A stretch of DNA of 64,000 bases, from sequence record PP892525.1, one strand, 5' to 3'. Shown here piece by piece: positions 1 through 19,758 of this stretch (the first letter of the stretch is position 1; each line of letters starts with the position of its first letter). The notes under the pieces were generated by a model. The model searched no databases and was not told where the DNA came from. It saw nothing but the letters and a program-made list of their open reading frames with translations. The position numbers were made by a program, and so were the translations under genes. Origin of the DNA: Escherichia phage vB_EcoS_I14.

Positions 1-573
1 CATCACACATAGCTTCACCGATCAGATCGACATCCGCAGCATATTGCTTAGATTCCGCACTGTTAGGATCTTGCAGCTTAATCTGGAACTGCATAGCAGC
101 AATCTGCTGTACATCATACTCAGTATCGAAACCTTTACCTTTTTTCTCGATAGAAATATCAATATCAAACGGAGTTGCCAGGCTCAGCTGCTTCATGATA
201 GACTGGATGCCTTTCAGAATAGTGGCCTTAACTTCCATTACTTTCAGTTTGTTATCAGAACGGTCAATAACAAAAGCGATATAGTTTTTCTTCGGTTTCA
301 GCGGAACACGATTACCATCTTTATCCAGCTCTTTCTCGAAGAAGCCCATCTCATGAACTGGATCAGCTTTACCACGAACAAAACTCTCTTTGTCACGGTT
401 AAAACGGAGACATTCGAAAGGAGCTACGTTACCCTCTTTATTAGTCAGCCAATAGACATAACGTGGAAGAACACCAGAAACGATACGAACACGAGTGATA
501 CCGTTGTTGAACTTCAGGAATTCGATTTTATCGTTAGAACCGCCAGTAGTTTCGCCCCAAGACTTAGCCATAT
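1..573 (-). CDS. hypothetical protein, 5' part of a gene that continues past the window start (N-terminus MAKSWGETTGG...)
   Basis: ATG at 573 on minus strand with upstream AGGAAATAAAAT; frame open to window edge; plus ORF 44..589 is its shadow. Confidence 0.55.
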
Positions 574-985: not shown

Positions 986-1056
986 CTAAAATTTTTATTT
1001 TTCTGCTTCGGACTTTCTTATCAATCCGAAACTTTCTCTCTCAAATTTATGTATAT

Positions 1057-2421: not shown

Positions 2422-2915
2422 AATTTTATTCTAAGTCTAGGAATTTCAGGCTCCTCTTGATGGACTTGGTAAATAACAGGGCTATTATTTACCAGAATAT
2501 AGCTTATATAAGCTGGAACATAGGATAATACAAATGGATATGGAACTTTAGCTACATAGCATTGGTATTTTCCGTTATAAATTCTAGCTGAATGCAAAAC
2601 TTTAGAGGTGACAACATCATAGAACGTAGTTTTCTTCCAGTTAATAAGATTTCCATCAGAATCTATAAATTGGCTACGCTTTGACCCAACTAATTGAGAC
2701 AACATTGATATTCTGCCTCTAATAGGGTAGAGCTTGTATGGTAATTCTTTCCGTTTCTCAAATAGAATAAGCCTACGTTGAGAAAACGTGCCAGGCAACT
2801 TCCTGTTATCTAGCACATATTTATTATATCTTGTTGTAATTACGGAATAATCACCTTCTTGCTCAATTGATACAAACGCCCGTAAAGCATATACGGGCAA
2901 TTTGAAATCAAGCAC
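2418..2915 (-). CDS. hypothetical protein (165 aa)
   Basis: ORF start overlaps polymerase stop; no motif recognised. Confidence 0.5.
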   Translation of the reverse strand: MLDFKLPVYALRAFVSIEQEGDYSVITTRYNKYVLDNRKLPGTFSQRRLILFEKRKELPYKLYPIRGRISMLSQLVGSKRSQFIDSDGNLINWKKTTFYDVVTSKVLHSARIYNGKYQCYVAKVPYPFVLSYVPAYISYILVNNSPVIYQVHQEEPEIPRLRIKL

Positions 2916-5475
2916 CGAGAATCCTTCTCACGTTATCCAGATCTTTACATACAGCAATAAACTTATCATCCTTGTATTTGCTGTGATCTGGATGCTCTTT
3001 ATCCATTGCAGCTAGTTTCTTATACTCGAACTCTGCATCAAGTAATACACCCTTGACATAACGAGTATATTCATCATCATCAATACAAGCGATTGATGGG
3101 TGCTGCTTCTTCATCTTACCACAAGAGTAGTCACGAGAACCTCCAGCTTCAGAATCAGAATCAATACCAATCGGACAACCAGGAATACTGATACCACGGT
3201 CTTTCTGAATATTACGAATCAGGATTTCATTGTATTGGTCGATCAAATCCTCACGAACAATAGCAACTACGGAGTCGTGAACCAGCATAACAATCTTCAT
3301 CTCTTGTTCTAGGCCAAGAGAAATGATCTCATTATCTGCATCTACAGCACCTAAAAGGAGGCTATCAGAAGAAGCAGACTGAATGATTGCGTTAAATCCA
3401 GAACGGATTTCTTCACCTTGAACACCACGGTCTTCGGAGTGGATATTATGCAGACGACGTTTACGACCAAAGTGACTATAGATAAACCCATGATTCTTGA
3501 TCTGATCATGGCACTTATCAATCCAACGCTTAAGCTGCGGGAACTGACCGAAGTATGTCTCAATGTACTCTTTAGCATCTGCAACCGTACACTCTACAAA
3601 CGGTTCGCCTGTCTTAGCAGCCTGTTCCAGAAGAGCTTCGTTAACAGAATGAGCTACTTTAGCCGGGCCGGAACCATACAGAATACCAAAGGTGATTGCT
3701 TTAGCTGCTTGACGCAGAGCTGGGAATAACTTTTTAACATCACGAGGTTCGCATTGAAGCTTAAATACCATGTGTGCGATGTTAGAGTGGAAGTCAGGGT
3801 ATTTATCAGGCTCATTTCTCATGTTGATAAATACTTGTTGCATATTTCTATCACCAGATAGAACAGCAGCATAATAAACTTCCGCAGTTGTTAAGTCCCA
3901 TGCGATTACACGATACCCGGTAGGAGCTACTACACAACCCTTGATAATAGATTCATCACGAGGTAACTGTTGCAGGTTCAGTTTACCAGAAGAACTCAGA
4001 CGACCAGAAGTGGTCATGTGTTCGTGGAAGCCAGTACGAATGCAACCATCAGCATCAATACTCAGAAGAATCTTCTCAACATAAGTAGAGATCAGCTTAG
4101 TCAGCTTACGAATCTCTAGTAGAGTCTTAGCAATTGGATGCTGCGTAGACAATTCGTTCAGAGCCTCTGCATCTGTAGAGTCTGCTCCAGTATCCGTCAA
4201 TTTACCTGTTGGAGTTAACCCAACATAATCAAACAGAAGAACACGTAGCTGCTTAACAGAGTTTGGGTTAAACGCTTCGTTCTGGTCTTTCTCTAGCTGA
4301 ACGACTTCTGGATAAGTATACAGCTTCTCACGAGCTTTATTCAGATTATGAGTTAACTGGTACTGAGCTTCTTTTAAACGATCAATAGAAATAGGTACAC
4401 CACGATCCTCAACACGCTGGAGAAATACACAACCAGGCATTAGAACATCATAATACAGACTGCAAAGTTTTTCATTCTTCTCAATTTTTGGTAAGAAGAA
4501 GTTGTGCAAACGTATGGTGGCATCGGTATCTTTTGCAGCGTAAGGCCACATAATATCAAACGGAATTAAATCATAGGTGAAATCTTCTTTCTTGATTTTA
4601 TGTGCTTTGCAGTAATCCTCCTTGAACTTATCTAGCTCAAAGTCATAGTCACCCATATCGGTATACTTCATTGCTAGAGATTTCAAGCCATGAGTACCAC
4701 GACGCTCATCTAGAACATAATGCTGCAACATTGTATCATGGAGCCTGCGTTCTTTATGTGCTTTATCAAAAGTAAGTCCCAGATGGTACTTATAAAAGTG
4801 CATATCGAACTTCAAGTTGTGAAAAACAATAGTGTGGTTTTCACTATCCAGAATTTTCTGGAGATAATATACTGCAACCTCTGTGAGACAATCAGAATCG
4901 ATATATACACCCTGATACTCTTGGTGAGACATAGAAACACCAAGCAGATAACCATCTCGACAGTATAGTGCTGAGGTTTCGGAGTCGAATGCGACAGGTC
5001 CGATAACCATATTATACACCATCTTGATATATTCTTCCGCCTCGTCAGGGTCAGTAATAGGACGGTAATCACCAGCTTTTGCAATCTTCTCACGACCATT
5101 GATAATATCGTGGATATTCTCTACTGTTGCATCAAAAACTGGTTTCATTTCAGGCTTAAAGTGTAACTGGGCTGGGCTGATACTCGCAATCCAGTTAGCA
5201 TATCCATTATACTCTACACGTTTACCAGTATAATCCCCAATGCCTTTCTTTCCTGCAAAGTATAGGAAAGGTTCAGCACCTACCAGTATAACAAAATCAT
5301 AATCATTCGGGTCAAATGGGTTTTCTGGTGTTCCAATAGTAATATGCTTTTTAAGCAAACGACCAGATAACTTCTCGTTACACATATGGAATACATCAAC
5401 TTCCTCGCCGTATAGCTGGAAATGTTTATCATAACGAGTGTTATTTAGAGCTTTATCAACTACTGCGATTTTCAA
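2908..5475 (-). CDS. DNA polymerase, family A, with 3'-5' exonuclease domain
   Basis: 855 aa; exo motif VAFDSETSAL; PolA-type palm region with LVHDS; size matches T5-type polymerase. Confidence 0.9.
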   Translation of the reverse strand: MKIAVVDKALNNTRYDKHFQLYGEEVDVFHMCNEKLSGRLLKKHITIGTPENPFDPNDYDFVILVGAEPFLYFAGKKGIGDYTGKRVEYNGYANWIASISPAQLHFKPEMKPVFDATVENIHDIINGREKIAKAGDYRPITDPDEAEEYIKMVYNMVIGPVAFDSETSALYCRDGYLLGVSMSHQEYQGVYIDSDCLTEVAVYYLQKILDSENHTIVFHNLKFDMHFYKYHLGLTFDKAHKERRLHDTMLQHYVLDERRGTHGLKSLAMKYTDMGDYDFELDKFKEDYCKAHKIKKEDFTYDLIPFDIMWPYAAKDTDATIRLHNFFLPKIEKNEKLCSLYYDVLMPGCVFLQRVEDRGVPISIDRLKEAQYQLTHNLNKAREKLYTYPEVVQLEKDQNEAFNPNSVKQLRVLLFDYVGLTPTGKLTDTGADSTDAEALNELSTQHPIAKTLLEIRKLTKLISTYVEKILLSIDADGCIRTGFHEHMTTSGRLSSSGKLNLQQLPRDESIIKGCVVAPTGYRVIAWDLTTAEVYYAAVLSGDRNMQQVFINMRNEPDKYPDFHSNIAHMVFKLQCEPRDVKKLFPALRQAAKAITFGILYGSGPAKVAHSVNEALLEQAAKTGEPFVECTVADAKEYIETYFGQFPQLKRWIDKCHDQIKNHGFIYSHFGRKRRLHNIHSEDRGVQGEEIRSGFNAIIQSASSDSLLLGAVDADNEIISLGLEQEMKIVMLVHDSVVAIVREDLIDQYNEILIRNIQKDRGISIPGCPIGIDSDSEAGGSRDYSCGKMKKQHPSIACIDDDEYTRYVKGVLLDAEFEYKKLAAMDKEHPDHSKYKDDKFIAVCKDLDNVRRILGA

Positions 5476-5568
5476 ATTTAATCTCCTCTTGGTAAGTAAG
5501 TATAACTTCAGTGTTTCTTCTCTAACTTACCAATATATTATATCAAAATATTGGGATAATAGCAAATA

Positions 5569-5898
5569 CTATTTATAGGTGTGTAGTAATTTACGCATTT
5601 CATTGCGCTGCTTTTCTAGCACTCGAAATTCTTCATCTATACACAGAAAAGCATCTAGCACTTTCATAGATTGCTCAGTATTTTCTACAACAGCCCAATC
5701 ATATGTTAGGTACACCTCTTGACCTGTATCTTTTACTTTAAAGTAAATATAAGATGCAGGCAATTTAGGATCACCAAATAAATGGAAATTCTTTCGTTTA
5801 TTAATGGACTCCAGTGTTGTAAACCGCTCTAGTTTAACCTCTTTGTGTGTTATACTATCGTACACCGGAACATCCGCATAAATATATACATATTCCAT
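5569..5898 (-). CDS. hypothetical protein (109 aa)
   Basis: ORF between primase and polymerase genes. Confidence 0.5.
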   Translation of the reverse strand: MEYVYIYADVPVYDSITHKEVKLERFTTLESINKRKNFHLFGDPKLPASYIYFKVKDTGQEVYLTYDWAVVENTEQSMKVLDAFLCIDEEFRVLEKQRNEMRKLLHTYK

Positions 5899-5924
5899 AG
5901 TAGCTCCTCAGTTATTTAGGACTA

Positions 5925-6815
5925 TTATACCAAATCTTTAAGCGACTCAGCAACTAAAATTTCAATACGTTTTGCTAACATATCAATTTCATCTTTGTTT
6001 AAATCACCCGGATCTTTGCCTTCTGGCAGAAGAAAGTTAGCAACTACAGGTGTTAAACGCGTTTTTGTACGAATTAGCTTGGCCAACGCTTGTGCAGCTT
6101 TGTTACCAGAAGCATCATTATCTAGTAAGATAACAACAACTTTTACACCAGCAATAATATAAGGACTGAACTTATCTGCAATGTTATCCGAAGTAAACTG
6201 ATGTGTACCAAAGCAGCAAGAAGCATAGTCTATACCATTATCCTCTAGGTTAAGCATATCAAAGATACCTTCAACTAGAATAAGAACTGGAGTATTATAT
6301 CGTACAGGGAAAATCGGTGGTGAAACTTGTTTTGGTTTTACTAAGTATTTAGGAGGGGCAGAACTGTTTATAGAACGACCCAAAAATAGGATATTGCGTC
6401 CAACAGCATCTGTGATTGGGAATACAATTCTGCCTTCCCAGTCTGCTTGGTGTTGGAAAGCAAAATATTTCTTCAAGGTTTTAGAACTTATACCTCGGAA
6501 ATCACCTTCGAAAAGGTAAGCAGATTCAGGAATTGCAAGATTTGTAGATCCATTCCTAATCTCTGAAATCTTTTTACGTACCTGCGATAGTCTTGGAGAC
6601 TGTCGGTACTGAGTCTCGTTAAAATAATGGTAAATGCTCGGTATACCTTTACCGAAGCCACAACTCAAGCAGTGCATAATACCTGTTTCAGGATCAATAC
6701 GCAAACTTGGGTGTTTATCGTCATGATCTGGATTGAGACAACAGATGAGGATGTCCCCACCTGTGTCTTTATATTCAATGCCTTTCAGATCAAGTAGTTC
6801 TGTTATTCTACTCAT
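5925..6815 (-). CDS. DNA primase (zinc-binding plus Toprim)
   Basis: Cys/His cluster CCLNPDHDDKH...HCLSCGFGKG; Toprim acidic motifs LVEGIFD and VILLDNDASG. Confidence 0.85.
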   Translation of the reverse strand: MSRITELLDLKGIEYKDTGGDILICCLNPDHDDKHPSLRIDPETGIMHCLSCGFGKGIPSIYHYFNETQYRQSPRLSQVRKKISEIRNGSTNLAIPESAYLFEGDFRGISSKTLKKYFAFQHQADWEGRIVFPITDAVGRNILFLGRSINSSAPPKYLVKPKQVSPPIFPVRYNTPVLILVEGIFDMLNLEDNGIDYASCCFGTHQFTSDNIADKFSPYIIAGVKVVVILLDNDASGNKAAQALAKLIRTKTRLTPVVANFLLPEGKDPGDLNKDEIDMLAKRIEILVAESLKDLV

Positions 6816-8335
6816 ATATCGCTGGCCTGTTCACCTGTTGAATTTTCAGTTTTGTCTTTCTTAGCACGTTTAGGTTGAGCCGGCTTATCCTTCTCAATAG
6901 GGATAACGAACTCAGCTTCCATTTGAGATATATCTTCCATTGCTAGGTTGGTAGTGTTATCCATTCGCAGAGTTTCCCAATTCATTTTAGGCATAAACTT
7001 CACGCTATCAGAAGAACGAGTCTTAACGAAGTCAAACATAATAGCACCTTGACCATTATCAGCTTTAGCAGCATTAAGATTAGCAGCCATGTCTGCGGAA
7101 TCAAGAATCCCCTTTGACATACGTGTTCTACCATCTTGATCGATCTGGTAGGGAGCTACGCCAGCCACGTTATGTTTCTGGCAGATGGATTTGAAAGACG
7201 AGCTAACAACCATCTGTTCCTTCCAGTCATACATATCAATGGTTTTAGAATCTGGAAGTCGGGTTTGGTTAATATAGTCCAGTAAAGCTACTGTAACTTT
7301 ATCACCATATCTAGCAACTAATTTATTTAATTCTACGTCAACTGTTGTAATGGACAGTTCAGGGTCATAAACGATAATCATAGGAGTATGTAGTTCATAC
7401 CCTTCTATTAGCTTACTCTCCATATCGTAGAAATCACTCATCTTAGCCATTGTATACTGTTTAACGAAGTTATCGAAAAGCTCTTCACCCCCGTTGAACA
7501 TTCTAGCTCTAGTTCTGGCTAATCTCAATAGAGCTGCACCTTCTAGAGTATTATTACGCATTGCTAGTGCTGATACCCCGGCTAACATGGCTAGATTACG
7601 TCTAAATACTTCATGTTCTTTCATCTCAATTGAGAAGTATGGAGCAATATCTCCATTCAAATATTGCTGAACCTGTATGTTTGAACAGATAATGGATTTA
7701 CCAGTACCACGCCAACCACCAAGCAGTAACGTTTCTGTGCGAGCTAAACCAATTTGAGCGTCGAACTCATTACAAATACCAAGAGCGATTAAGTTCAGTT
7801 TGGTATCTTCTTCTCTCTGGAAAATACGCATGTTATCTGCGTTGAATACTTTTCCAGTATTCGTTACTTTCTCTTCTAATTTTAAGTGAAGGGAGGCAAC
7901 TCGGTTGAGAATTTCTCCCTGATCCAGCATTGTTAAATCTTGAAGCACGTCTGTTTCTAGAAGCTTCAGGAATAAATCCTGTGTATATTCAGCCTCTAGG
8001 ACTTCAAGTGCCTGTTCCATGCTCACTTCTGGAATTTGAGTGTTAGCTAAGACGACTAGAGCTTGAGAAAGGCGGGCGTTCCTATTAGCTTCAAGCATAA
8101 GTGCGTCAATGGACGGCATTGTGTTATATTTTTTATAATAATTCTGGACGGCTTGGTAAATTGAGGAGAAAGCGTCATTAAAATGATCTTTATGCAGTTT
8201 TGAGAATGTTTCCAATGCTATTTGCTTCTGTTCGGAAGCTAGAAGCATCTTTAACACTACAGCTTGCACGTTAAACAAGGTCATTCTCCTTTGCACGCTT
8301 TCGTGCCTTCTAAATGCAAAAAGGGGAAGGAGCAT
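6812..8335 (-). CDS. replicative DNA helicase (DnaB-like, RecA-fold)
   Basis: Walker A GGWRGTGKS, Walker B-like IIVYD; 507 aa; adjacent to primase. Confidence 0.75.
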   Translation of the reverse strand: MLLPLFAFRRHESVQRRMTLFNVQAVVLKMLLASEQKQIALETFSKLHKDHFNDAFSSIYQAVQNYYKKYNTMPSIDALMLEANRNARLSQALVVLANTQIPEVSMEQALEVLEAEYTQDLFLKLLETDVLQDLTMLDQGEILNRVASLHLKLEEKVTNTGKVFNADNMRIFQREEDTKLNLIALGICNEFDAQIGLARTETLLLGGWRGTGKSIICSNIQVQQYLNGDIAPYFSIEMKEHEVFRRNLAMLAGVSALAMRNNTLEGAALLRLARTRARMFNGGEELFDNFVKQYTMAKMSDFYDMESKLIEGYELHTPMIIVYDPELSITTVDVELNKLVARYGDKVTVALLDYINQTRLPDSKTIDMYDWKEQMVVSSSFKSICQKHNVAGVAPYQIDQDGRTRMSKGILDSADMAANLNAAKADNGQGAIMFDFVKTRSSDSVKFMPKMNWETLRMDNTTNLAMEDISQMEAEFVIPIEKDKPAQPKRAKKDKTENSTGEQASDI

Positions 8336-8366
8336 AGCCCCCTCCCCTTAGGTTTAATTTACCAGA

Positions 8367-9134
8367 TTATTCAGCAGCCGCAGCTTTTGCATCCAGTTTA
8401 GCACGCTTAGCGGCACCATCATAGTCCTTAGCAACCAGACCACGACGAGACAGCATAGATTTAACACCGCGCTCAGACTTACCAGTTTTCTCAGCGATCT
8501 CAGCAACAGTCATGTTAACCAGATCCAGACCTTCTAACAAATCTTCACGAGTTTTAGCACTTGAAGTTTCCTGTACCGGCATAGCAGCGATACGACCTTC
8601 ACGAAGCAGGCTCAGAGCTTTACCACGGATCTGCTTGATATTACGACCGAAGTGAGCAGCAATAGCTTCAATAGTAGCACCAGCAACAACCTGATTAACA
8701 AAATCAGTTTCTTCATCCGGAGTGAAGGAACGAACAGCGGCAGCTTTTTCAGTTGGTTTAACAGAAGCGGTCATTTCCAGACTCAGGATCTTACCCTGTA
8801 CCTGCTTAGCACCGAACTGACCACCAGCTACAGCAGCAGCGATTTCAGCATAGGTATACTGACCAGCATGAGCGTTCAGGAAATCAACCAGTTCAGCTTC
8901 CTGCTCGGGAGTCCACGGGGATTTCTGTACTTCGTTAGCTTTCTGTACTTCAAAACCTTCTTTACGCAGTTTAGAGCCAACAGAGCGAGCAGTAACATCT
9001 TTGCCAGTTTCAGCAGCCAGTTCAGCAGCGATAGCAGCTACTTGTTCTTGAGAGATTACAGCAACACCCAGAGCAGTGGCTTTTGCTTTCAGAGACTCGG
9101 TTACACCTTCTACGTTCCAGTTCAGTTTAGACAT
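8367..9134 (-). CDS. Ala-rich putative DNA-binding protein with four internal repeats (possibly T5 D5-like)
   Basis: 255 aa; repeated about 25 aa motif G-K-x-V/L-x-S-x-L-R-x-x-G. Confidence 0.55.
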   Translation of the reverse strand: MSKLNWNVEGVTESLKAKATALGVAVISQEQVAAIAAELAAETGKDVTARSVGSKLRKEGFEVQKANEVQKSPWTPEQEAELVDFLNAHAGQYTYAEIAAAVAGGQFGAKQVQGKILSLEMTASVKPTEKAAAVRSFTPDEETDFVNQVVAGATIEAIAAHFGRNIKQIRGKALSLLREGRIAAMPVQETSSAKTREDLLEGLDLVNMTVAEIAEKTGKSERGVKSMLSRRGLVAKDYDGAAKRAKLDAKAAAAE

Positions 9135-9909
9135 TATTATTTTTCTCCAATAGTTCTTTAATCGACAGGATTTCTATCCCATTCGTTTCGGCTTTCTTAT
9201 AAGATGAGGAAGAACGTTTTGATTCATCCTCACAGATTAGGTATTTGACGTCTTTAGTAACGGATTTCTTAACCGTATACCCTAGACTTTCTAAATAGTT
9301 TGTTGCATCCGTTCTATTTGCAAAATCTTGCAAAGATCCGGTAATACATACCGCGATTCCATTTGGCTGGGCAACTAATTCATCTGTAATGATGATATTA
9401 GCTTTAGTGCCCCTAATACCAGTTGAAAATTTCCACGGTAGTTCGATAACATCTTTGCCTTGTGGGGAATTTAGCCAGGCTTTATAATTTTCTCCAGCCT
9501 TGCCGTCAGCCTTCACATCGTGGAAGCTAGTGCAATTTTGGGATAATTTCTTTGCTGCAACCTCTCCAATTAGAGGGATTCCTAAAGAACCGAGAACTGA
9601 ACCAAAGTCAATGTCTCCGCGAACTTTAGTATTTAATTCGCTAATTAACTTAGCGGCAACCTTGCTACCCACGGCTCTAACCAAATCTTCTTCGGTTAGG
9701 TAAAATAGTTCTGAAATCTTCGTCAGCTCCAGCTTCTCAATAGTTTTTGGGCCAAAGCCCTTTAACTTCATTTTTGTACAGAAGTTCTCAATTAACTTAC
9801 TTGATTGTGCTGGACAGTTGGACTTATTACGACAGAATAATTGTCCGTTGACAAGATCTAGCTTAGAACCACAAGAGGGACATTGTGTTGGAATTTCGAT
9901 TTTCATCAA
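9127..9909 (-). CDS. lig: NAD-dependent DNA ligase, C-terminal half (Zn finger, HhH, BRCT)
   Basis: CPSCGSKL...CRNKSNCPAQ zinc motif, HhH GPKTIEKL, BRCT-like tail; separate ORF from the adenylation domain. Confidence 0.85.
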   Translation of the reverse strand: MMKIEIPTQCPSCGSKLDLVNGQLFCRNKSNCPAQSSKLIENFCTKMKLKGFGPKTIEKLELTKISELFYLTEEDLVRAVGSKVAAKLISELNTKVRGDIDFGSVLGSLGIPLIGEVAAKKLSQNCTSFHDVKADGKAGENYKAWLNSPQGKDVIELPWKFSTGIRGTKANIIITDELVAQPNGIAVCITGSLQDFANRTDATNYLESLGYTVKKSVTKDVKYLICEDESKRSSSSYKKAETNGIEILSIKELLEKNNNV

Positions 9910-9936
9910 ATTTCTTCCTTATCAATTTATATAAAT

Positions 9937-9965
9937 ATTATAGCAAGTATTTAAGCATTTAGCAA
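9937..9965 (-). promoter_or_regulatory. T5-type promoter (minus) in the gap between the two ligase ORFs: -35 TTGCTA, -10 TATAAT
   Basis: plus ATTATA 9937-9942, TAGCAA 9960-9965, 17 bp spacer; RBS AAGGAAG before ATG at 9909. Confidence 0.7.
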
Positions 9966-10108
9966 CTACAATTTTAACTAACTTTGCTTACCCTCGCCAT
10001 AACTTTCTATCCCTCAACTGAATGATAATAGTATATACCTAAGCGGCGAAAATGTCAATAACCACTTTATAATTCCGATATGGTAGATGGGTAGCAAAGG
10101 GTTATGTA

Positions 10109-11080
10109 TTAATCGTATACTCGCTCTACTATGCACGGGATTACACCACCAGCACGAATCACTCGAATCTGGCAACCGATCTCTAGATCAAGAGAGTTAA
10201 TATAATCAACGTTATTAAGAGTCGCTTTAACAATTGTAGCGTCATCAATAATTACCGGTTCGAAATAACCAACTGGAGTTACTTTACCAGAAGCCCCTAC
10301 CTGCCATTCAACTTTAGTAAGAGTTGTAATCTCGCCTTCTTCATCCTCTTTAATAGCGAATGCCCCACGAGGGAATTTATTAGTCCAGCCTTCACGGAAG
10401 AATTTGTTGTTGTCATTAATACGAACAACTTTACCGTCCGTCGGAATCCATTTAAAGAAGGAACGCACATTAACAACTGTTAAGAAATCTTCATTCTCTA
10501 GCCAGAGCATATCTTTTAAATATGATTCTGTAATACCTACAGATTCAGCAGAACACTGGATACCGTATGCAACAAAGATTAAACCACCTTCCCCGATACG
10601 TTGTACGAAATCATCGCTATCTTTGAGGTTAATAGCGCCAGAGGCAAAGTTACGTTTATTTTCTACTTCTTTTGTAATTAGAACTTCACCAGTAATTTGA
10701 GTAGGTACTTTTTGGGAAATCTTTTTAGGGATGTTCAGCAATCTTACGTTGCTTGTGACATCATTCCCTAGAATGCCATTACCGCGAGTTAGTGCTTGAA
10801 CAAATTCGCCATTAATATATAACAGAGAAATCGCACAACCATCTAACTTATCAGTTTCTACCTGACCTAATGGGTTAAACGGAGGTTTATCCCCACGATT
10901 ATAATAAACTTTCTGTAAAGAATACATACGATACAGATGTGGAATATCTCCCTTAGGCCCAATCTCTTCCTCTAGTGGGAATCTTTTAATCAGACGATCA
11001 TATTCTTCGTCAGAGATTAAAGACATTCCCTGGTAATACGCTTCTTGGCAACGTTTAATAAAGTCTTTTACATTAGTCAT
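10109..11080 (-). CDS. lig: NAD-dependent DNA ligase, N-terminal adenylation and OB domains
   Basis: KxDG adenylation motif in TDKLDGCAISLLY; 323 aa. Confidence 0.85.
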   Translation of the reverse strand: MTNVKDFIKRCQEAYYQGMSLISDEEYDRLIKRFPLEEEIGPKGDIPHLYRMYSLQKVYYNRGDKPPFNPLGQVETDKLDGCAISLLYINGEFVQALTRGNGILGNDVTSNVRLLNIPKKISQKVPTQITGEVLITKEVENKRNFASGAINLKDSDDFVQRIGEGGLIFVAYGIQCSAESVGITESYLKDMLWLENEDFLTVVNVRSFFKWIPTDGKVVRINDNNKFFREGWTNKFPRGAFAIKEDEEGEITTLTKVEWQVGASGKVTPVGYFEPVIIDDATIVKATLNNVDYINSLDLEIGCQIRVIRAGGVIPCIVERVYD

Positions 11081-11111
11081 TTATTTGTATCTCTCATTAA
11101 TTTATATAAAT

Positions 11112-11140
11112 ATTATATAACAAAACTGAGTTGAAAGCAA
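11112..11140 (-). promoter_or_regulatory. T5-type promoter (minus): -35 TTGCTT, -10 TATAAT
   Basis: plus ATTATA 11112-11117, AAGCAA 11135-11140, 17 bp spacer. Confidence 0.65.
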
Positions 11141-11149
11141 ATACATTTA

Positions 11150-11183
11150 TAAAGAAAAAGCCAAGAACTAGGCATTCTTGGCT
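11150..11183 (-). terminator. rho-independent terminator (minus strand)
   Basis: hairpin GCCAAGAA/TTCTTGGC followed on minus strand by CTTTTTCTTT. Confidence 0.65.
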
Positions 11184-11476
11184 TTGAGTTCTTCAGCTCG
11201 TTTCTGTACTTCATGTAAAACCTCAGATTCGCTAAGAATCTGGGTAAACGCATAGAAAAGCTGTGATGTTGTTTCTAGGGTGTAAGGAAAAGAGAAGCCA
11301 GATTTCGTTGGAAACCATTCATCATTAATATCAAGAAGCCAGTAACGAATACCCATGTATAGATTCCCACGAAATTCAGATACTGTTAATCTTACTTGTT
11401 CTCCCTCCTTCTCCCAGAGTATGATGGACTGGTCATCAACGTGTCCTTCATAGTTTTGATTTACCTGTTCGCTCAT
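11168..11476 (-). CDS. hypothetical protein (102 aa)
   Basis: ORF ending in the terminator hairpin. Confidence 0.5.
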   Translation of the reverse strand: MSEQVNQNYEGHVDDQSIILWEKEGEQVRLTVSEFRGNLYMGIRYWLLDINDEWFPTKSGFSFPYTLETTSQLFYAFTQILSESEVLHEVQKRAEELKAKNA

Positions 11477-11526
11477 TTACATATCCCAAATACACAAAAA
11501 GCCCCATATAGGGGCTAATTGGTTTC

Positions 11527-11823
11527 TTATCGGCCTACTGGAGAAGCACGATCTAACTCTGATTGGAGGCTAGTCACACGACGGACTTTCTCGACAGGAA
11601 TAAAACGGAAGCTATCATTAGTACGAGAGAAGACAAGGATCTCATCATCTTTCGCTTTACGAATACGTTCACGTTTAATACGCTCAGCCAGATATTTATC
11701 TTGGGCTGGATCAAATTCCATCGTACCCTGAAGGTACGTGGTTCCTTTCTGACGAAGTTTCTCGTAATGAAGATAAAACTCACCAAATTTTTCACATTGT
11801 GCGATAATTTCAGCTTTGGTCAT
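11527..11823 (-). CDS. hypothetical protein (98 aa)
   Basis: ORF; overlapping ORFs on both strands judged spurious. Confidence 0.5.
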   Translation of the reverse strand: MTKAEIIAQCEKFGEFYLHYEKLRQKGTTYLQGTMEFDPAQDKYLAERIKRERIRKAKDDEILVFSRTNDSFRFIPVEKVRRVTSLQSELDRASPVGR

Positions 11824-11859
11824 AACTGTGTTCCTTTTGTTGGTGGATTTATCTAAAAA

Positions 11860-12270
11860 TTACTTAGTGATAGCTCGGATTGCTTCTGCCAGATGAGCAG
11901 CCGCTTTACCGGTCAGTTTGTCGATAATTGCATCATCCAGAAAATCTGGTGCTAGGCCAGCATCAGAGAATGCTGAACGAAGGTCGGCATGAGCTTGGGC
12001 TTTGGAAGTACGAGAACCACCAGAAGCTTTTTCTCCAGTAGATGCGCTAGATTTAGAAGCAGAGCCAGCAGCTTTCTTGATATACAAACCTGCTTTAGTC
12101 AGCTTCATACGAAAACCGTTCGGAGTTACACCATTTTCCTGGGCAATTTCGCTAACAATTTCCATGCTAACACCTGGACGTTCATCCTCTGGGAATTGCT
12201 CCATACGAGCAACGTATTCGGAAGACATTTTTTCGAACAGTTCATCAGTCCACTGAGTTGGAGTAGTCAT
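11860..12270 (-). CDS. hypothetical protein with a motif shared with the 8367..9134 product
   Basis: 136 aa; segment NGFRMKLTKAGLYIKK resembles the repeat unit of the upstream gene. Confidence 0.5.
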   Translation of the reverse strand: MTTPTQWTDELFEKMSSEYVARMEQFPEDERPGVSMEIVSEIAQENGVTPNGFRMKLTKAGLYIKKAAGSASKSSASTGEKASGGSRTSKAQAHADLRSAFSDAGLAPDFLDDAIIDKLTGKAAAHLAEAIRAITK

Positions 12271-12376
12271 ATTTTATATTTCCTTAATTAAGAATTAAAC
12301 AGAATAGTTCTTTCAAACTATGAGAATATTATATCAAGAATTATAGGATTAAGCAACTGAAATTTTTCTGTAATTG

Positions 12377-12664
12377 CTACACATCTAGCTCAACGATCTC
12401 CCAATCATCCGCCAGAGCTTCTTCTAGGGTTAGGGAGGAGGTTTTCCATGTTGCGTCTTTTATATCGAACTTGGTATACCCATCTTCATTGGGCCACCAG
12501 GTAAACTCGACAATATCATTATTATCAACATCTACTTTTATAATAGTAGAGTAATAAGTACGAGAGTCCCAATTACCCCAGCTATCCCGCTGGAGATATT
12601 TTACATCTCCATCTTTGAGCAAATCTGTTAGCTTACTCACGGCGTTTTCCTTTTTCTTTATCAA
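12377..12664 (-). CDS. hypothetical protein (95 aa)
   Basis: ORF. Confidence 0.45.
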   Translation of the reverse strand: MIKKKENAVSKLTDLLKDGDVKYLQRDSWGNWDSRTYYSTIIKVDVDNNDIVEFTWWPNEDGYTKFDIKDATWKTSSLTLEEALADDWEIVELDV

Positions 12665-13337
12665 GCTTCAGGGCGGCCTTAACAGCTTCGTTAATCAACG
12701 TAATAATTTCTTCACGAGTCCACTTGTACCCTAGAGATTTTACGTCAACCCCTAGTTTTTCCAGATGTTTAACAGAAGCCAGCTCGTAATTCATATAATG
12801 AACGTTCTGTTGTTTGCCTTCCGATAGAAGCCATACACGGTAACAACCAACAGGATTATCCATTGCTTTTTTGATTTCACCGATACACTGGTATCCAGGA
12901 ACCCAAACAAGCTCACCAACTGCAAATTCTTCTGCTACAGCATCATCAGGAATAATCGGAGGATTCAATGGATCTACAATATCGTTCAAACGAAGTAGAG
13001 CACCATAGCGTTCCAGAACAGATTTAACCATTGCTACAGAGCGGTAATTACGATCGGCAATTTCTTCAAAAGAATCACCAGATAAATACTGCTCAATAAC
13101 GTTAGCTAACTCGATGCCTTCAATAAGTGTGCCACGTTTCTTTTTCTTCATTTCGGCAACTTGAATTTGGCGATCTTGCCACTCTTCAATCATCCTTTCC
13201 ATAGTTGGATTGGATGATACGCCGAGCATTTCACATGCTGCTTTCTTAGTACCACCGTTCTCCAGATGCTCTATAACCTTTTTAAAGACTTCATCAGGGA
13301 TTTCATGGATATGTTTCTTTCTACGAGAACCAGCCAT
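12633..13337 (-). CDS. putative HTH DNA-binding protein
   Basis: 234 aa; N-terminal segment TKKAACEMLGVSSNPTMERMIEEW looks like a helix-turn-helix. Confidence 0.5.
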   Translation of the reverse strand: MAGSRRKKHIHEIPDEVFKKVIEHLENGGTKKAACEMLGVSSNPTMERMIEEWQDRQIQVAEMKKKKRGTLIEGIELANVIEQYLSGDSFEEIADRNYRSVAMVKSVLERYGALLRLNDIVDPLNPPIIPDDAVAEEFAVGELVWVPGYQCIGEIKKAMDNPVGCYRVWLLSEGKQQNVHYMNYELASVKHLEKLGVDVKSLGYKWTREEIITLINEAVKAALKLDKEKGKRRE

Positions 13338-13405
13338 ATTTAAACTCCTCTCTCAAATTTATAAATCTATTATACAGAAATTTTTTGCACTATGCAAATA
13401 AATTT

Positions 13406-13648
13406 TTACGATTCCTTGAGCAAAGAAGCAAGTTCAGCATAGACTTTATCTAACTCAAAGCCGATGCGAAGAGACACGTTAGTTTTCCGTTGTTTAAGTA
13501 ACCACTCGGATATGTTAGGGATGCCAGCTAATCTATGTGGTACCACCCTACATAGCTTTTCCGAAGTGTCGTAAACAGGAACTTTACGTTCTTTTACTGG
13601 GAACTTCCTTGTTTCCCATTTTTTATTCTTCACTGTCATTTCTAGCAC
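13406..13648 (-). CDS. hypothetical protein (80 aa)
   Basis: ORF. Confidence 0.45.
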   Translation of the reverse strand: MLEMTVKNKKWETRKFPVKERKVPVYDTSEKLCRVVPHRLAGIPNISEWLLKQRKTNVSLRIGFELDKVYAELASLLKES

Positions 13649-16490
13649 CTAGCTCTGCCATTGCTTCATCATGCATATGTTTCTCCTCATCAGTCATAAA
13701 CTTATACGGGATTGGCATACATTCGATTTTACAATAGGTTCTGTACCAGTCTACAATATTCTCCGTGTTCATATCCTTACCAATACCCATCATACCAAGA
13801 TACATTCTGGCATATTTTGGGTTAGCACTCTGACCTGTTTTAAGGAAGAAATCTTTCTTCTTACCTTTCAGAGCTTCTATGAATGGTTTGATAGTGACAT
13901 TTGAGCACTTCTTAATATCTTCCCAGAACATCTCGTGCATTTTATGGAAGAATGCCGCTCGATCATTCGGTTTATCCTTGATATACTGCTCAACATGCTC
14001 AACTGTTACATCTTTAATAGACTCAAGATGATAATAGCGAACAAGAAGTAGTTTAGCTTCATACGCATCTGCATGACGTGGAGCACAATAATCAGGAGTT
14101 GAATACAAAATAGCTTTGATTCGCTCTTCCGTATATTCTTTTCCTGCACCTTCGATAGTTCCCCAGCTTTCACTGAAAATATCAATAGTTGCACCCTGAT
14201 CAAGCAAGTAATAACGTAAAGTACTAGTATAGTTCCTAGATTCCAGCTCCCTACGACGTGCGTATAATTGCTGTGCTAACTCCAGCCAACCTTCATCAAT
14301 GTTATACTGTTCAGAACCTGCGGAGAATCCACTCGTAGATTTATCAATAAAATAATAAATGTTCTGGGCACCACGGTCGCGCCTGATTGCTTGGAAACGC
14401 ATGTTTGGCGCTTGGTTGCTAGTTCTAGTAATAACGAATACGTTATCAAAATAGTTGAAGTCAACACCACTCGTTACGGATGGACTACATAATAAGCAAT
14501 CAATTTGTTGGTCAATTAACTCATTAGTTGTGTAATCCAGAATACGTCGAATATCTACATCAGACGTAGAGTTTGAGTGGATTTCCTTAACTAACGCACC
14601 CGTATTACGACGCAACGCCATGCCCTTCTCATTCAGTTCATCCGGCCCACAGTCAGATACTAGGATAGATTTCTCCCCCATCTCTAGAGATGTCTGAAGC
14701 GCAACCCAAATACTGGATTCATCAGGGAACTCATAAGCATGAGCTTTTGACAGCATTTTTCGGTGATGATTATAAAATGCAACCGGTTTATCAAACTCAA
14801 TCAAGGAACCATATGCTTCAATTGTTTCTGCACTAATATCACCATCAGATAATATAATGATTTTTGCAGTTGCAAGAATATCCCGAAGAACCTGAATGCA
14901 TTCACGACGTTGTTTAACAACCGGGGCGAATAGTAGGTCATTCATTACAGCATCACATTCATCGATAAAGATTGCATCAATTTGACCAATAAAACTCTTG
15001 AACTTATGCAAAGAGTGAATAGTTGTGGACATACGGTCAATAGCACCACGCTTAAAATTAAGCATATCTACAGACTTATCATATTGTCCTGCACTAAATT
15101 TCTTAGCATTTGAAGACACCAGTGCTCTAGTATTGGTAATTGCTAAGAAATTACCTTTAATAACTCCCGAATCTAACCAACGCACAACCGCCGTGGTTTT
15201 ACCTGTACCTAGACTTGCTTTTACAAAAGTCATATAACCTTCTGGTGGCACAGTATTTAATTTCAAGAAGTTATCAGTTTCTAGGGAGTTAGTTTCTAGC
15301 TTTTTAAGTGGAATACCTTTTAAAACATCAGGTATATCGCGTTTAGAATTATTAACAAACGCTTTCAGAGCCTGTTTACGACCGTTATTAAAGTAATCTT
15401 GAATATTACGACTATTATCTTTAGTTGCAATATATTCTGATAAGGCTGGGCGGATTTCTTTTTCTAGCCATGCAAAATCAACACCATCCTCTAAAGCCCT
15501 GTGATAGAGTTTAGGAATAATACGTAGATACACTCCATCCTCAGCTTCTTCTAGTTCGCTGATAGTTTCTTCTACTTTATCAGAGGCAGCTTTTTTACCC
15601 TTAATTTGGTCGAGTAAAGAGTAAAACTCCTCCTTAAACTCACCTCTAGTTGTTTCATAGTCAACCAGATTATTTGGTAAATTTACTTTAGAACCTTTAA
15701 CAAATACCAGACGTGAAGCACCCTCCGCCTTAAACGGATCTACTATACCATCGGTAAATAACGGATCTGCAAAATAATGGAGCTGTACGGAAGAGTAATA
15801 AGCTAAGTCGGCAATATCAAAGCCATACTTTTGTCTACTACTTTCGTTGATAGATGTAAATAAGAATTTGATTTGACCCTGAGTTACTTTAACATTAGAT
15901 TCTAGTATTAAGTGCATTCGGATACCTGGTTTTAGCCCAGCCGAAGATGATGCATGAGCGATAAACCCTGCATCAAGAGGAAACATATCCTCACTAATAC
16001 TATTTAACATTCTAATAATATGTCGAGCCATACCAACAAGATCAAACTTGTTACAACCACCTGTATCTACAATACCATCCACGTCCATTGCAATTATATG
16101 ACTTGGGTTAGATACATTAAAGTTGCCCTTCTTACGTCGCACATTATTTTTAGGTGCAAGACATCGACCTCGTACCGCAACGATATGAGGGTCAGACGTT
16201 AAACGCCTCATAAGAGGGAGCATTTCTACTAGGGTTTGAGGATCAACTTCATCAATTACATCAAACTTGAAGGGCATTGAAGCTGGTTTACCTTCAGGAT
16301 GCTTTGAGGAAAATCTTTTAGCAAAAAGATAGTCTTCTGCTTTAACTTCTCGCCAAATGCCTGTGGCTAAGTCGCGATGAAATCCTGCATGACCTTGTAG
16401 GATTGAGAACACAACAATACTCCTGTGTTGGAAATGAAATAAGTTTTCTTTAGGACTATTCAGAAAGAATAGAACAACTGTTACTGTCAA
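13623..16490 (-). CDS. large P-loop ATPase, helicase/origin-binding-like; start uncertain
   Basis: Walker A SLGTGKTT, Walker B IFIDECDAV; first codon of longest ORF is TTG at 16490, first ATG is at 16277. Confidence 0.65.
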   Translation of the reverse strand: MTVTVVLFFLNSPKENLFHFQHRSIVVFSILQGHAGFHRDLATGIWREVKAEDYLFAKRFSSKHPEGKPASMPFKFDVIDEVDPQTLVEMLPLMRRLTSDPHIVAVRGRCLAPKNNVRRKKGNFNVSNPSHIIAMDVDGIVDTGGCNKFDLVGMARHIIRMLNSISEDMFPLDAGFIAHASSSAGLKPGIRMHLILESNVKVTQGQIKFLFTSINESSRQKYGFDIADLAYYSSVQLHYFADPLFTDGIVDPFKAEGASRLVFVKGSKVNLPNNLVDYETTRGEFKEEFYSLLDQIKGKKAASDKVEETISELEEAEDGVYLRIIPKLYHRALEDGVDFAWLEKEIRPALSEYIATKDNSRNIQDYFNNGRKQALKAFVNNSKRDIPDVLKGIPLKKLETNSLETDNFLKLNTVPPEGYMTFVKASLGTGKTTAVVRWLDSGVIKGNFLAITNTRALVSSNAKKFSAGQYDKSVDMLNFKRGAIDRMSTTIHSLHKFKSFIGQIDAIFIDECDAVMNDLLFAPVVKQRRECIQVLRDILATAKIIILSDGDISAETIEAYGSLIEFDKPVAFYNHHRKMLSKAHAYEFPDESSIWVALQTSLEMGEKSILVSDCGPDELNEKGMALRRNTGALVKEIHSNSTSDVDIRRILDYTTNELIDQQIDCLLCSPSVTSGVDFNYFDNVFVITRTSNQAPNMRFQAIRRDRGAQNIYYFIDKSTSGFSAGSEQYNIDEGWLELAQQLYARRRELESRNYTSTLRYYLLDQGATIDIFSESWGTIEGAGKEYTEERIKAILYSTPDYCAPRHADAYEAKLLLVRYYHLESIKDVTVEHVEQYIKDKPNDRAAFFHKMHEMFWEDIKKCSNVTIKPFIEALKGKKKDFFLKTGQSANPKYARMYLGMMGIGKDMNTENIVDWYRTYCKIECMPIPYKFMTDEEKHMHDEAMAELGARNDSEE

Positions 16491-16911
16491 TTTCTCAACA
16501 AATTAATTGCAAATACTGAAGTGGGGTGGCAACTTCCACTTTCACGCTACACTGCCGCTTCACTATACCGCACAAATCCTTGAGGATGGCCGCTAAGCCA
16601 GATTTGCTCACCTAATGCTTCATGTACTAGCTCATACTAGATGTAGTATACCTTACGTCATCACTTCTCAGAGTTTTTCACTCTTCCCGTCTCACTTCAC
16701 AACCACCTCACACTAGGTTGCTTCGAGGCCTTACCAGGGTTCCTACGGGATGTAGATCGCTAAGTATTCTATTAATTATTTGTTTAAAAACTAACACGTA
16801 ACAGTTAAAACAACCCTTAATGGGGCAGCCTAACTGTTCCGTATCGCGGATTGTAAACAAGAAAAATTAGCAAAATCAATTTTTACTAATGTCTCTCAAT
16901 TCAATATAAAT

Positions 16912-16940
16912 ATTATATCAAGATTTTGGGCATCCTGCAA
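16912..16940 (-). promoter_or_regulatory. promoter (minus): -35 TTGCAG, -10 TATAAT, about 400 nt upstream of the ATPase gene
   Basis: plus ATTATA 16912-16917 and CTGCAA 16935-16940, 17 bp spacer. Confidence 0.5.
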
Positions 16941-17031
16941 GTAAAATTTTCCGGACGGTGCTATCATTGGTCTTGAGTACGGATAAAACCGAGCCAAAAT
17001 GACTCGGTAATCAGAGTTCAGCTAGTAAAAA

Positions 17032-17424
17032 TCATTCATCATTTAGGCCTGGAACATAGATCCCAACACGGTTTAATTGTTCTTTAGCTTCTTTGAGAAT
17101 ATCTGGAGTGTACTCCCAAATATCATCTTCCACCTGTAAAAGATGGGGCGAACAACCGTCATCCGGCACACGACATATGGCCAAACCACGTGGATGGAAC
17201 AAAGAGAAATTTAGGGCAACAATTAAACCCATAGCAGACAATTCATTCCAATCCAATTCCCATTCCCCCGCGTAGCCGGATAGGAAAACACCAACACAGG
17301 GATCATCTATTTGCTGCTCCGGAAAAGTGAGGGAGGCTTGTCTTACCCCCAACCAACGTTGTAGCAGCTTCTCCGCACGTTTCACCAAACTAGGGTCAAT
17401 CTGACGCCAATATACTTGTTCCAT
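17032..17424 (-). CDS. hypothetical protein, paralog of 17434..17862
   Basis: shared segments MGLIVALN, FHPRG, PGL. Confidence 0.55.
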   Translation of the reverse strand: MEQVYWRQIDPSLVKRAEKLLQRWLGVRQASLTFPEQQIDDPCVGVFLSGYAGEWELDWNELSAMGLIVALNFSLFHPRGLAICRVPDDGCSPHLLQVEDDIWEYTPDILKEAKEQLNRVGIYVPGLNDE

Positions 17425-17433
17425 TCTGCCTCC

Positions 17434-17862: not shown

Positions 17863-17864
17863 AT

Positions 17865-19749: not shown

Positions 19750-19758
19750 TCTTGTTCC

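What the first reader, a model, noticed from the sequence alone, without database searches (positions are those of the whole stretch)
9127..11080. NAD-dependent DNA ligase encoded as two separate ORFs with a promoter in the 200 bp gap
The adenylation/OB half (10109..11080, KxDG motif) and the Zn-finger/HhH/BRCT half (9127..9909) are separate ORFs on the same strand. The 199 bp gap (9910-10108) contains a complete T5-type promoter and an RBS for the second half but no ORF, intein or homing endonuclease. The enzyme would have to assemble from two polypeptides, or the second half is expressed independently. A split ligase is described for T5 as I recall it; the internal promoter is what the sequence shows.
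Basis: partly seen in the sequence, partly recalled or inferred. Interest (0 to 1): 0.45.

Follow-up and report, generated by a model that had tools for sequence, protein, structure and literature searches.

The report
Phage T5 split DNA ligase genes

Summary
On the minus strand, ligA (10109..11080, 323 aa: Ia, adenylation and OB domains, K78-LDG) and ligB (9127..9906, 259 aa: four-Cys zinc finger, HhH, BRCT) are separate ORFs in different frames. The 202-nt spacer has stops in all three frames. It is not an error: the window is a T5-like phage, and the spacer is 100% identical to that of T5. The split has been cited in the literature since 2005, and PDB entries 9hu3/9i5i hold both chains of the Providencia phage PR1 homologue together.

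All 93 relatives holding both halves are split at the same OB/zinc-finger linker, and none is fused. Spacers run from 34 to 1374 nt and sometimes carry ORFs, including a GIY-YIG endonuclease in one Tequintavirus. A near-consensus sigma-70 promoter about 55 nt upstream of ligB and a D5 gene directly after ligB are conserved across the clade. In the shortest spacers the -35 hexamer contains the ligA stop codon. Novelty: already known. Interest: low.

The parts
11157..11185 (-). Intrinsic-terminator-like hairpin plus T-run after the upstream PC4-like gene, ahead of the ligA promoter
   Evidence: 12-pair stem, T tail. A terminator is annotated at the same place in phage Lindwurm.
11099..11140 (-). 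T5-type early promoter module upstream of ligA (TTGCTT-17-TATAAT followed by the ATAAATT box)
   Evidence: The T5 record annotates an unnamed promoter at the homologous position, 65284-65358. It shares the 19-mer TATAATATTTATATAAATT with P28a.
10109..11080 (-). [quoted passage not shown]
   Evidence: 98.8% identical to T5 LigA. Matches PDB 9hu3_A at E = 4e-103.
9907..10108 (-). 202-nt ligA-ligB spacer, non-coding, 100% identical to the T5 spacer
   Evidence: Only 0.7% of positions differ among 34 distinct relatives, against 13.6% and 7.4% at third codon positions of ligA and ligB.
10030..10058 (-). Promoter P-K 28b core (TTGACA-17-TATACT)
   Evidence: 11/12. Annotated 'promoter P-K 28b' in T5 AY543070 at 66366-66440. 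Sequence identical.
9937..9965 (-). Promoter P-K 28a core (TTGCTA-17-TATAAT with extended -10 TG), followed by the ATAAATT downstream box
   Evidence: 10/12 plus TG. Annotated 'promoter P-K 28a' in T5 at 66459-66533. One of at least 22 such modules in the window.
9914..9920 (-). Shine-Dalgarno AAGGAAG, 7 nt before the ligB ATG
   Evidence: An RBS is annotated at this place in Lindwurm.
9127..9906 (-). ligB: NAD-dependent DNA ligase subunit B (four-Cys zinc finger, HhH, BRCT), 259 aa
   Evidence: 96.5% identical to T5 LigB. Matches PDB 9hu3_B at E = 6e-80.
8367..9134 (-). D5 DNA-binding protein gene; its ATG overlaps the ligB stop by 8 nt (ATGTCTAA), so it is co-transcribed with ligB and probably translationally coupled to it
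   Evidence: A D5 homologue directly follows ligB in every relative whose sequence extends that far.
8321..8349 (-). Intrinsic-terminator-like hairpin that would end the ligB-D5 transcription unit
   Evidence: 13-pair stem, 8 GC pairs, T tail. A terminator is annotated at the same place in Lindwurm.

Best explanation
This is the T5-type two-subunit NAD+-dependent DNA ligase locus. LigA (Ia, adenylation and OB domains) and LigB (zinc finger, HhH, BRCT) are made as two separate early proteins. They assemble non-covalently into an enzyme equivalent to single-chain bacterial LigA. The break falls exactly in the linker between the OB fold and the zinc finger. ligA has its own promoter. No terminator follows it, so read-through can continue into ligB. 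The spacer adds two tandem sigma-70 early promoters, P-K28b and P-K28a, which start a conserved ligB-D5 transcription unit ending at the terminator at 8349..8321. Shown here: the gene structure, the identity with the annotated T5 locus, the clade-wide conservation of the split and of the promoter, and the strong constraint on the spacer. Inferred: heterodimer assembly (from the PDB co-structure of a roughly 55-60% identical homologue), promoter activity in this phage (from the T5 annotation and consensus match), and unequal dosage of the two subunits.
For: The window is a Tequintavirus-like phage: 472 phage records match and the best is 98.4% identical. T5 record AY543070 annotates ligA as 'subunit A', ligB as 'subunit B', and 'promoter P-K 28b' and 'P-K 28a' in the spacer. 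The window spacer is identical to that of T5. PMC1684257 and PMC3632103 both describe the T5 split ligase and its subunits A and B. The concatenated A+B sequence aligns collinearly across the junction with Thermus filiformis LigA 1dgs residues 282-653, with only small gaps at the OB/Zn linker. PDB 9hu3/9i5i contain a 339-aa 'DNA ligase (NAD(+))' chain and a 248-aa 'DNA ligase subunit B' chain in the same entries. Chain B is 100% identical to Providencia phage PR1/PSTCR5 LigB. All 93 loci with both halves are split, and spacers run from 34 to 1374 nt. A promoter-like site starts 52-75 nt upstream (mostly 54-59) of the ligB ATG in 41 of 44 distinct upstream sequences, against 5% at random positions. 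D5 follows ligB everywhere. The spacer is far more conserved than synonymous sites of the flanking genes.
Against: No experiment on this phage's proteins or transcripts is available here. The paper behind 9hu3 was not found, so the stoichiometry and activity of the complex rest on the co-deposition of the chains. The promoter names come from a GenBank annotation, and the original promoter papers were not retrievable. Three promoters feed ligB and one feeds ligA, which is odd for an obligate 1:1 complex.
Confidence: 0.92

Rival explanations
1. LigA and LigB act largely independently. LigA would be a minimal ligase or adenylyltransferase. LigB would be a DNA-binding BRCT/HhH factor working with D5, for example in replication or late-transcription complexes, rather than an obligate ligase subunit.
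For: ligB has its own two strong promoters and is coupled to D5 by an 8-nt overlap. The promoter-ligB-D5 module is conserved clade-wide, while the distance to ligA varies from 34 to 1374 nt and may hold unrelated ORFs. A C-terminally truncated NAD+ ligase (LigN-deltaC) still self-adenylates (PMC1684257).
Against: Both halves are present and adjacent in 93/93 loci. Both chains occur together in PDB 9hu3/9i5i. From established knowledge of LigA domain-deletion studies, the Zn/HhH domains are needed for nick binding and sealing. The break removes essentially no residues relative to single-chain LigA.
Confidence: 0.05
2. A single polypeptide is restored by recoding or processing, such as ribosomal bypassing of the T4 gene 60 type, frameshifting, RNA splicing of an intron remnant, or protein trans-splicing.
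For: The halves are collinear, on the same strand, and together reconstitute a full LigA.
Against: The spacer is 202 nt with 5-7 stops in every frame. It has no Rfam hit and so no intron. ligB has its own SD and ATG. Spacer length varies from 34 to 1374 nt and contains whole ORFs in relatives. No intein-like sequence flanks the junction. The PDB entry contains two separate chains.
Confidence: 0.02
3. Sequencing or assembly error, or a decaying pseudogene.
For: None beyond the bare fact of an interrupted gene.
Against: The same split is found in 430+ independently sequenced phage genomes and 80 IMG/VR contigs. Both halves are under purifying selection: codon positions 1+2 differ 1.5-1.8% against 7-14% at position 3. 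No single indel restores the ORF.
Confidence: 0.01

Closest known systems
Bacteriophage T5 ligA (T5.116) / ligB (T5.117) with promoters P-K 28b and P-K 28a (GenBank AY543070; Wang et al. 2005, as cited in PMC1684257)
   Same: Same genes, order, strand and break point. LigA is 98.8% and LigB 96.5% identical. The 202-nt spacer is 100% identical, including both annotated promoters. The neighbours are the same: the PC4-like gene upstream, then D5 and the D6 helicase downstream.
   Different: Nothing of substance. The window comes from a closely related Tequintavirus; the best overall match is phage AZ23 at 98.4%.
Providencia phage PR1 two-chain NAD+ ligase, PDB 9hu3 / 9i5i
   Same: Same two-subunit architecture split at the OB/Zn linker. 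Chain A matches at E = 4e-103 and chain B at E = 6e-80 against the window proteins. There is a 192-nt spacer with an annotated terminator and promoter, and D5 follows ligB.
   Different: LigB is only about 55% identical. The PR1 record annotates a terminator after ligA, whereas none is detected in the window spacer.
Single-chain bacterial LigA (E. coli 2owo, T. filiformis 1dgs)
   Same: Same domain order and catalytic motifs. The alignment is collinear through the junction.
   Different: One polypeptide of about 670 aa against two of 323 and 259 aa. The phage version has shorter Ia, HhH and linker regions. Identity is under 30%. All fused phage LigA genes found (in jumbo phages) are also under 30% identical.
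Other split or interrupted phage DNA-metabolism genes, such as the T4 topoisomerase genes 39/60 and genes interrupted by free-standing homing endonucleases (own knowledge)
   Same: An enzyme that is single-chain elsewhere is encoded as adjacent separate genes. The junction is a landing site for mobile ORFs: a GIY-YIG endonuclease sits in the spacer of relative L041, next to a divergent tract at the ligA 3' end.
   Different: In this window the spacer holds no endonuclease and there is no bypass element. The universally conserved spacer content is a promoter.

Membership tests
NAD+-dependent DNA ligase (LigA family) | Nucleotidyltransferase (adenylation) domain with the catalytic KxDG lysine | tested here: met
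   Pfam PF01653 scores 83.7 bits against a cut-off of 27. K78-L-D-G is present.
NAD+-dependent DNA ligase (LigA family) | N-terminal domain Ia with the NMN-binding motif (YY..G.P.isD.EYD.L) | tested here: inconclusive
   The N-terminus reads AYYQGMSLISDEEYDRLI and aligns with the N-terminus of 9hu3_A. The motif match rests on my own knowledge of the LigA consensus. No profile specific to domain Ia was run.
NAD+-dependent DNA ligase (LigA family) | OB-fold domain following the NTase domain | tested here: met
   Pfam PF03120 scores 78.4 bits against a cut-off of 32.9, residues 252-321 of LigA.
NAD+-dependent DNA ligase (LigA family) | Four-Cys zinc finger, HhH domain and C-terminal BRCT | tested here: met
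   C9, C12, C25 and C31 are invariant in 7 divergent LigB sequences. BRCT PF00533 scores 33.3 bits against a cut-off of 21.3. HHH_2 scores 24.5 bits, just under its cut-off of 27. The region aligns collinearly with 1dgs up to residue 653.
T5-type split (two-subunit) NAD+ ligase, LigA/LigB | Two separate ORFs broken at the OB/zinc-finger linker, not restorable by a frameshift | tested here: met
   The break point is the same in 93/93 relatives.
T5-type split (two-subunit) NAD+ ligase, LigA/LigB | Orthology with the T5 ligA and ligB genes in the same genomic context | tested here: met
   98.8% and 96.5% protein identity, with the same neighbours.
T5-type split (two-subunit) NAD+ ligase, LigA/LigB | The two polypeptides form one active ligase | not testable with these tools
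   Support is indirect only: both chains of the PR1 homologue are deposited together in PDB 9hu3/9i5i. The single-sequence AF2 model of LigB was unusable, with pLDDT 34.7.
T5 early promoters P-K 28b / P-K 28a | Sequence identity with the promoters annotated in the T5 genome | tested here: met
   The spacer is 100% identical to T5. The annotated 75-nt features map to window 10078..10004 and 9985..9911, each placing its hexamers at the same offset.
T5 early promoters P-K 28b / P-K 28a | Transcription initiation by host sigma-70 RNA polymerase at these sites | not testable with these tools
   Consensus match is 11/12 and 10/12 plus an extended -10. Conservation is much stronger than at synonymous sites. 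Function rests on the T5 annotation.
Intron, intein or translational-bypass interrupted gene | An intervening sequence with a self-splicing RNA fold, intein motifs or a bypass signal, giving one final polypeptide | tested here: not met
   No Rfam hit at E up to 5. No extra residues at the junction. Spacers are variable and contain ORFs in relatives. ligB has its own RBS and ATG.

The most novel reading that the evidence does not exclude
The split may exist because of the promoter. A near-consensus sigma-70 promoter is needed in front of the ligB-D5 unit, and such a promoter cannot be encoded in-frame: TTGACA contains TGA and TATAAT contains TAA. It was therefore accommodated in the only tolerant site, the OB/zinc-finger linker, which cut the ligase in two. 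This state was then fixed throughout Demerecviridae-like phages, uncoupling LigB dosage from LigA dosage. The supporting pattern is new as far as I could find. The promoter at about -55 is the one universal content of the spacer. In the minimal 34-52 nt spacers of uncultivated aquatic relatives, the ligA stop codon lies inside the -35 hexamer.
Probability: 0.25. Interest if true: 0.3.

Novelty: already known. Interest (0 to 1): 0.1.

Why it matters
As a finding it matters little. The split T5 ligase has been annotated and cited since 2005, its spacer promoters are named in the T5 GenBank record, and a two-chain structure of a homologue is in the PDB. The value of this check is negative: the feature needs no further follow-up as a novelty. 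The modest added value is comparative. The split, the promoter just upstream of ligB and the ligB-D5 linkage are invariant across cultured Demerecviridae and uncultivated aquatic relatives. The rest of the spacer is a variable landing pad for small ORFs and a homing endonuclease. This gives a concrete, testable idea of why the gene was split and stays split.

Tried and rejected
1. Frameshift or sequencing error. Rejected: there are stops in all frames and the split is present in hundreds of genomes.
2. Intron or structured RNA in the spacer. Rfam at E up to 5 found nothing.
3. A conserved RNA structure in the P28b leader. The 117-nt leader folds with z = -4.0 by the tool and -3.8 in my own shuffles. 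The equivalent regions of six distant relatives give z of -0.8 to -1.9 with different folds. I therefore do not claim it as an element.
4. A fused close relative. None was found among 93 loci. Single-piece phage LigA hits are all under 30% identical.
5. An endonuclease in the gap. Absent from the window, but found in one relative, L041, as a GIY-YIG ORF.
6. The insertions in the two-piece megablast hits lie upstream of ligA, not in the spacer.
7. The paper behind PDB 9hu3 and the original P-K28 promoter papers. Six searches returned nothing relevant.
8. Single-sequence AlphaFold2 of LigB, intended to reach the PDB entry description by fold search. The model had pLDDT 34.7 and was unusable, so no fold search was run.
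9. The large protein-database searches (search for homologous proteins, the search of protein representatives) were deliberately not run, because the verdict did not depend on them.
Full report
**1. What is in the sequence**

On the minus strand there are two ORFs.
- The upstream ORF is 10109..11080 (323 aa).
  - It matches Pfam DNA_ligase_aden (83.7 bits) and DNA_ligase_OB (78.4 bits).
  - It carries the catalytic K78-LDG motif.
  - Its N-terminus (AYYQGMSLISDEEYDRL) resembles the domain Ia motif of NAD+ ligases. That resemblance rests on my own knowledge of the consensus.
- The downstream ORF is listed mechanically as 9127..9909, from a TTG.
  - Every annotated relative and PDB chain 9hu3_B start at the next codon, the ATG at 9906 (MKIEIP...), giving 259 aa.
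  - It has four Cys at residues 9/12/25/31, invariant in seven divergent homologues.
  - It has a BRCT domain (33.3 bits) and a just sub-threshold HhH match.
- The spacer is 202 nt (199 nt from the TTG).
- ligB is in the +1 frame relative to ligA, and each frame of the spacer has 5-7 stop codons.
  - AAGGAAG lies 7 nt before the ATG.
  - Rfam finds nothing in or around the spacer at E up to 5.

**2. The promoters**

- The simple sigma-70 scan gives two sites in the spacer. They are the two best hits on that strand in the 4.5 kb scanned.
  - TTGACA-17-TATACT at 10058..10030, matching 11 of 12 positions.
  - TTGCTA-17-TATAAT with an extended -10 TG at 9965..9937, matching 10 of 12.
- No terminator-like hairpin lies between ligA and ligB. 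Terminator-like hairpins sit before the ligA promoter (11185..11157) and after D5 (8349..8321).
- The second spacer promoter belongs to a stereotyped module: TTGCTn-17-TATAAT, then ATAAATT, then an SD and an ATG.
  - At least 22 copies occur in the 64-kb window, including the one in front of ligA at 11140..11099.
  - A promoter in front of ligB is therefore an ordinary feature of this genome's organisation.

**3. Identity of the locus**

- The window is a T5-like phage. 472 phage records match the region, 430 of them over at least 80% of it, and the best is 98.4% identical.
- T5 GenBank record AY543070 annotates exactly this arrangement:
  - ligB (T5.117) as "subunit B";
  - "promoter P-K 28b" and "promoter P-K 28a" in the spacer;
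  - a further unnamed promoter before ligA.
- The window spacer is 100% identical to that of T5. LigA is 98.8% and LigB 96.5% identical to the T5 proteins.
- Salmonella phage S114 carries the same promoter labels.
- Two papers confirm that the split is known.
[quoted passage not shown] 2005.
  - PMC3632103 lists ligA and ligB as subunits A and B.

**4. Break point and assembly**

- The concatenated LigA+LigB sequence aligns collinearly across the junction with Thermus filiformis LigA (1dgs, residues 282-653).
  - Only small gaps fall between ...AGGVIPCIVERVYD and MKIEIPTQCPSCG... That places the break in the linker between the OB fold and the zinc finger.
  - No coding sequence is missing, and the spacer is an insertion-like non-coding segment.
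- The best PDB matches are not single-chain ligases but the two chains of 9hu3/9i5i: "DNA ligase (NAD(+))" of 339 aa (E = 4e-103) and "DNA ligase subunit B" of 248 aa (E = 6e-80).
  - Chain B is 100% identical to LigB of Providencia phage PR1/PSTCR5.
  - A two-chain complex of a homologue has therefore been solved. This is the basis for inferring that the window's proteins assemble into one enzyme.
  - I could not find the associated paper.
- A C-terminally truncated NAD+ ligase can still self-adenylate (PMC1684257). From established domain-deletion work on LigA (own knowledge), nick sealing needs the Zn/HhH part.

**5. Relatives**

- tblastn with the concatenated protein shows a clear division.
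  - Every hit of at least 44% identity comes in two pieces. These include Tequintavirus, Epseptimavirus, Klebsiella, Pantoea, Vibrio and Aeromonas phages.
  - All single-piece (fused) phage LigA genes are under 30% identical and come from jumbo phages.
- Annotated regions and 80 IMG/VR contigs were analysed together.
  - All 93 loci holding both halves are split, and none is fused.
  - The spacer ranges from 34 to 1374 nt.
- Spacer content varies.
  - It holds nothing but promoters in T5-like and Klebsiella phages (202 and 199 nt).
  - TrudiRoth has an unannotated 64-aa ORF.
  - Pantoea AAS21 has a 108-aa ORF.
  - Vibrio phages have two to three ORFs, one of them annotated DprA-like.
  - An aquatic contig has a thioredoxin plus a weak, sub-threshold T5orf172-like ORF.
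  - Tequintavirus contig L041 has a 218-aa GIY-YIG endonuclease, 26 bits against a cut-off of 22.6. It is inserted between the ligA stop and P28b. The adjacent ~190 nt of ligA drop from about 95% to about 70% identity, while both promoters stay intact.

**6. What is conserved**

- In 41 of 44 distinct upstream sequences, a TTGnnn-16..18-TAnnnT site starts 52-75 nt upstream (mostly 54-59) of the ligB ATG. The rate at random positions in the same loci is 5%. Most sites match 10-12 of 12 consensus positions.
- In uncultivated aquatic relatives the spacer is only 34-59 nt and consists of that promoter plus a short leader.
  - In several of them the ligA stop codon TGA lies inside the -35 hexamer TTGACA.
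  - In others a TAA sits 3-4 nt before the -35 hexamer.
- A D5 homologue directly follows ligB wherever the sequence extends that far. In the window, D5 overlaps the ligB stop by 8 nt.
- Among 34 distinct Tequintavirus/Epseptimavirus sequences, the spacer differs from the window at 0.7% of positions. Third codon positions differ at 13.6% (ligA) and 7.4% (ligB), and positions 1+2 at 1.5-1.8%.
  - The whole promoter-bearing spacer is therefore under strong constraint.
  - The two 75-nt promoter features annotated in T5 cover almost all of it, leaving only 18 nt between them.

**7. Mechanism**

- Best-supported reading (confidence about 0.92): two early genes encode the two subunits of one NAD+ ligase.
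  - ligA is transcribed from its own promoter with read-through into ligB.
  - P-K28b and P-K28a add transcription of a conserved ligB-D5 unit.
  - The two proteins associate non-covalently.
- Steps that are shown:
  - the gene anatomy;
  - identity with the annotated T5 locus;
  - conservation of the split and the promoter;
  - constraint on the spacer.
- Steps that are inferred:
  - complex formation and activity, from the PDB homologue;
  - promoter function, from the annotation and consensus match;
  - unequal dosage of the two subunits.
- Rivals:
  - independent functions of the two halves (0.05);
  - recoding or splicing into one chain (0.02);
  - artefact or pseudogene (0.01).

**8. Leads that went nowhere**

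- The 117-nt P28b leader folds unusually well, with z about -4. The equivalent regions of distant relatives do not, so I do not claim an RNA element.
- A single-sequence AlphaFold2 model of LigB was unusable, with pLDDT 34.7.

**9. Verdict**

The feature is already known and annotated down to the promoter names.
- The only possibly new point is comparative. The promoter about 55 nt upstream of ligB is the universal content of the spacer, and in minimal spacers it supplies or abuts the ligA stop.
  - This suggests the promoter requirement of the ligB-D5 unit may be why the ligase is split.
  - That is a hypothesis (probability about 0.25) of modest interest.
- Interest 0.1; novelty: already known.

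Noticed in passing
window, + strand 28476-63407 and - strand 985-20097 (22 sites listed): There are at least 22 copies of a stereotyped T5 early-promoter module: A-rich upstream, TTGCTn, 17 nt, TATAAT, then ATAAATT, then GAGAGG-like SD and ATG. That is about one per 3 kb. P28a and the ligA promoter share an identical 19-mer, TATAATATTTATATAAATT.
   Followed up: partly
L041:3184-3840 (IMGVR_UViG_2974606035_000001): A Tequintavirus relative has a 218-aa GIY-YIG endonuclease ORF inserted between the ligA stop and P28b. The adjacent ~190 nt of ligA drop to about 70% identity, which looks like a homing co-conversion tract. Both promoters are intact.
   Followed up: yes
L055, L057, L058, L070 and similar IMG/VR aquatic contigs, 34-59 nt ligA-ligB spacers: In uncultivated relatives (35-47% identity) the spacer is just a near-consensus promoter plus a leader. 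The ligA stop codon TGA lies inside the -35 hexamer TTGACA/TTGACT/TTGATT, or a TAA sits 3-4 nt before it.
   Followed up: partly
window 9907-10023 (- strand): The 117-nt leader of a transcript started at P28b folds into a long hairpin that pairs with the P28a -10 region (MFE -26.1 kcal/mol, z about -4). The equivalent regions in Klebsiella, Providencia, Aeromonas, Pantoea and Vibrio relatives are not unusually stable (z -0.8 to -1.9).
   Followed up: partly
window 9127-9134 (- strand): The ligB stop and the D5 start overlap by 8 nt (ATGTCTAA). A D5 homologue follows ligB directly in every relative examined, so promoter-ligB-D5 is a conserved module.
   Followed up: yes
L007:1565-1759 (Escherichia phage TrudiRoth, NC_105117.1): An unannotated 64-aa ORF overlaps the ligA stop and accounts for the 358-nt spacer of this phage. 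It has no Pfam match.
   Followed up: partly
L060:3305-3923 and L067 (IMG/VR aquatic contigs): Here the ligA-ligB spacer (about 670 nt) carries a thioredoxin gene (Pfam 73 bits) and a weak T5orf172-like ORF (17.3 bits, below cut-off).
   Followed up: partly
window 11168-11476 and 8367-9134 (- strand): The gene upstream of ligA has a PC4 (transcriptional coactivator p15) domain at 32.1 bits. D5 downstream shows sigma-70 region 4-like helix-turn-helix matches at 28.7 bits. In one relative (SPLA5b) the D5 homologue is labelled 'endonuclease', which looks like a mis-annotation.
   Followed up: no
L002:1719-1907, L003:1720-2193 (phages Cit2, phA11): The length differences among close relatives seen in the first megablast come from one or two small ORFs inserted between the PC4-like gene and ligA, not from the ligA-ligB spacer.
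   Followed up: yes
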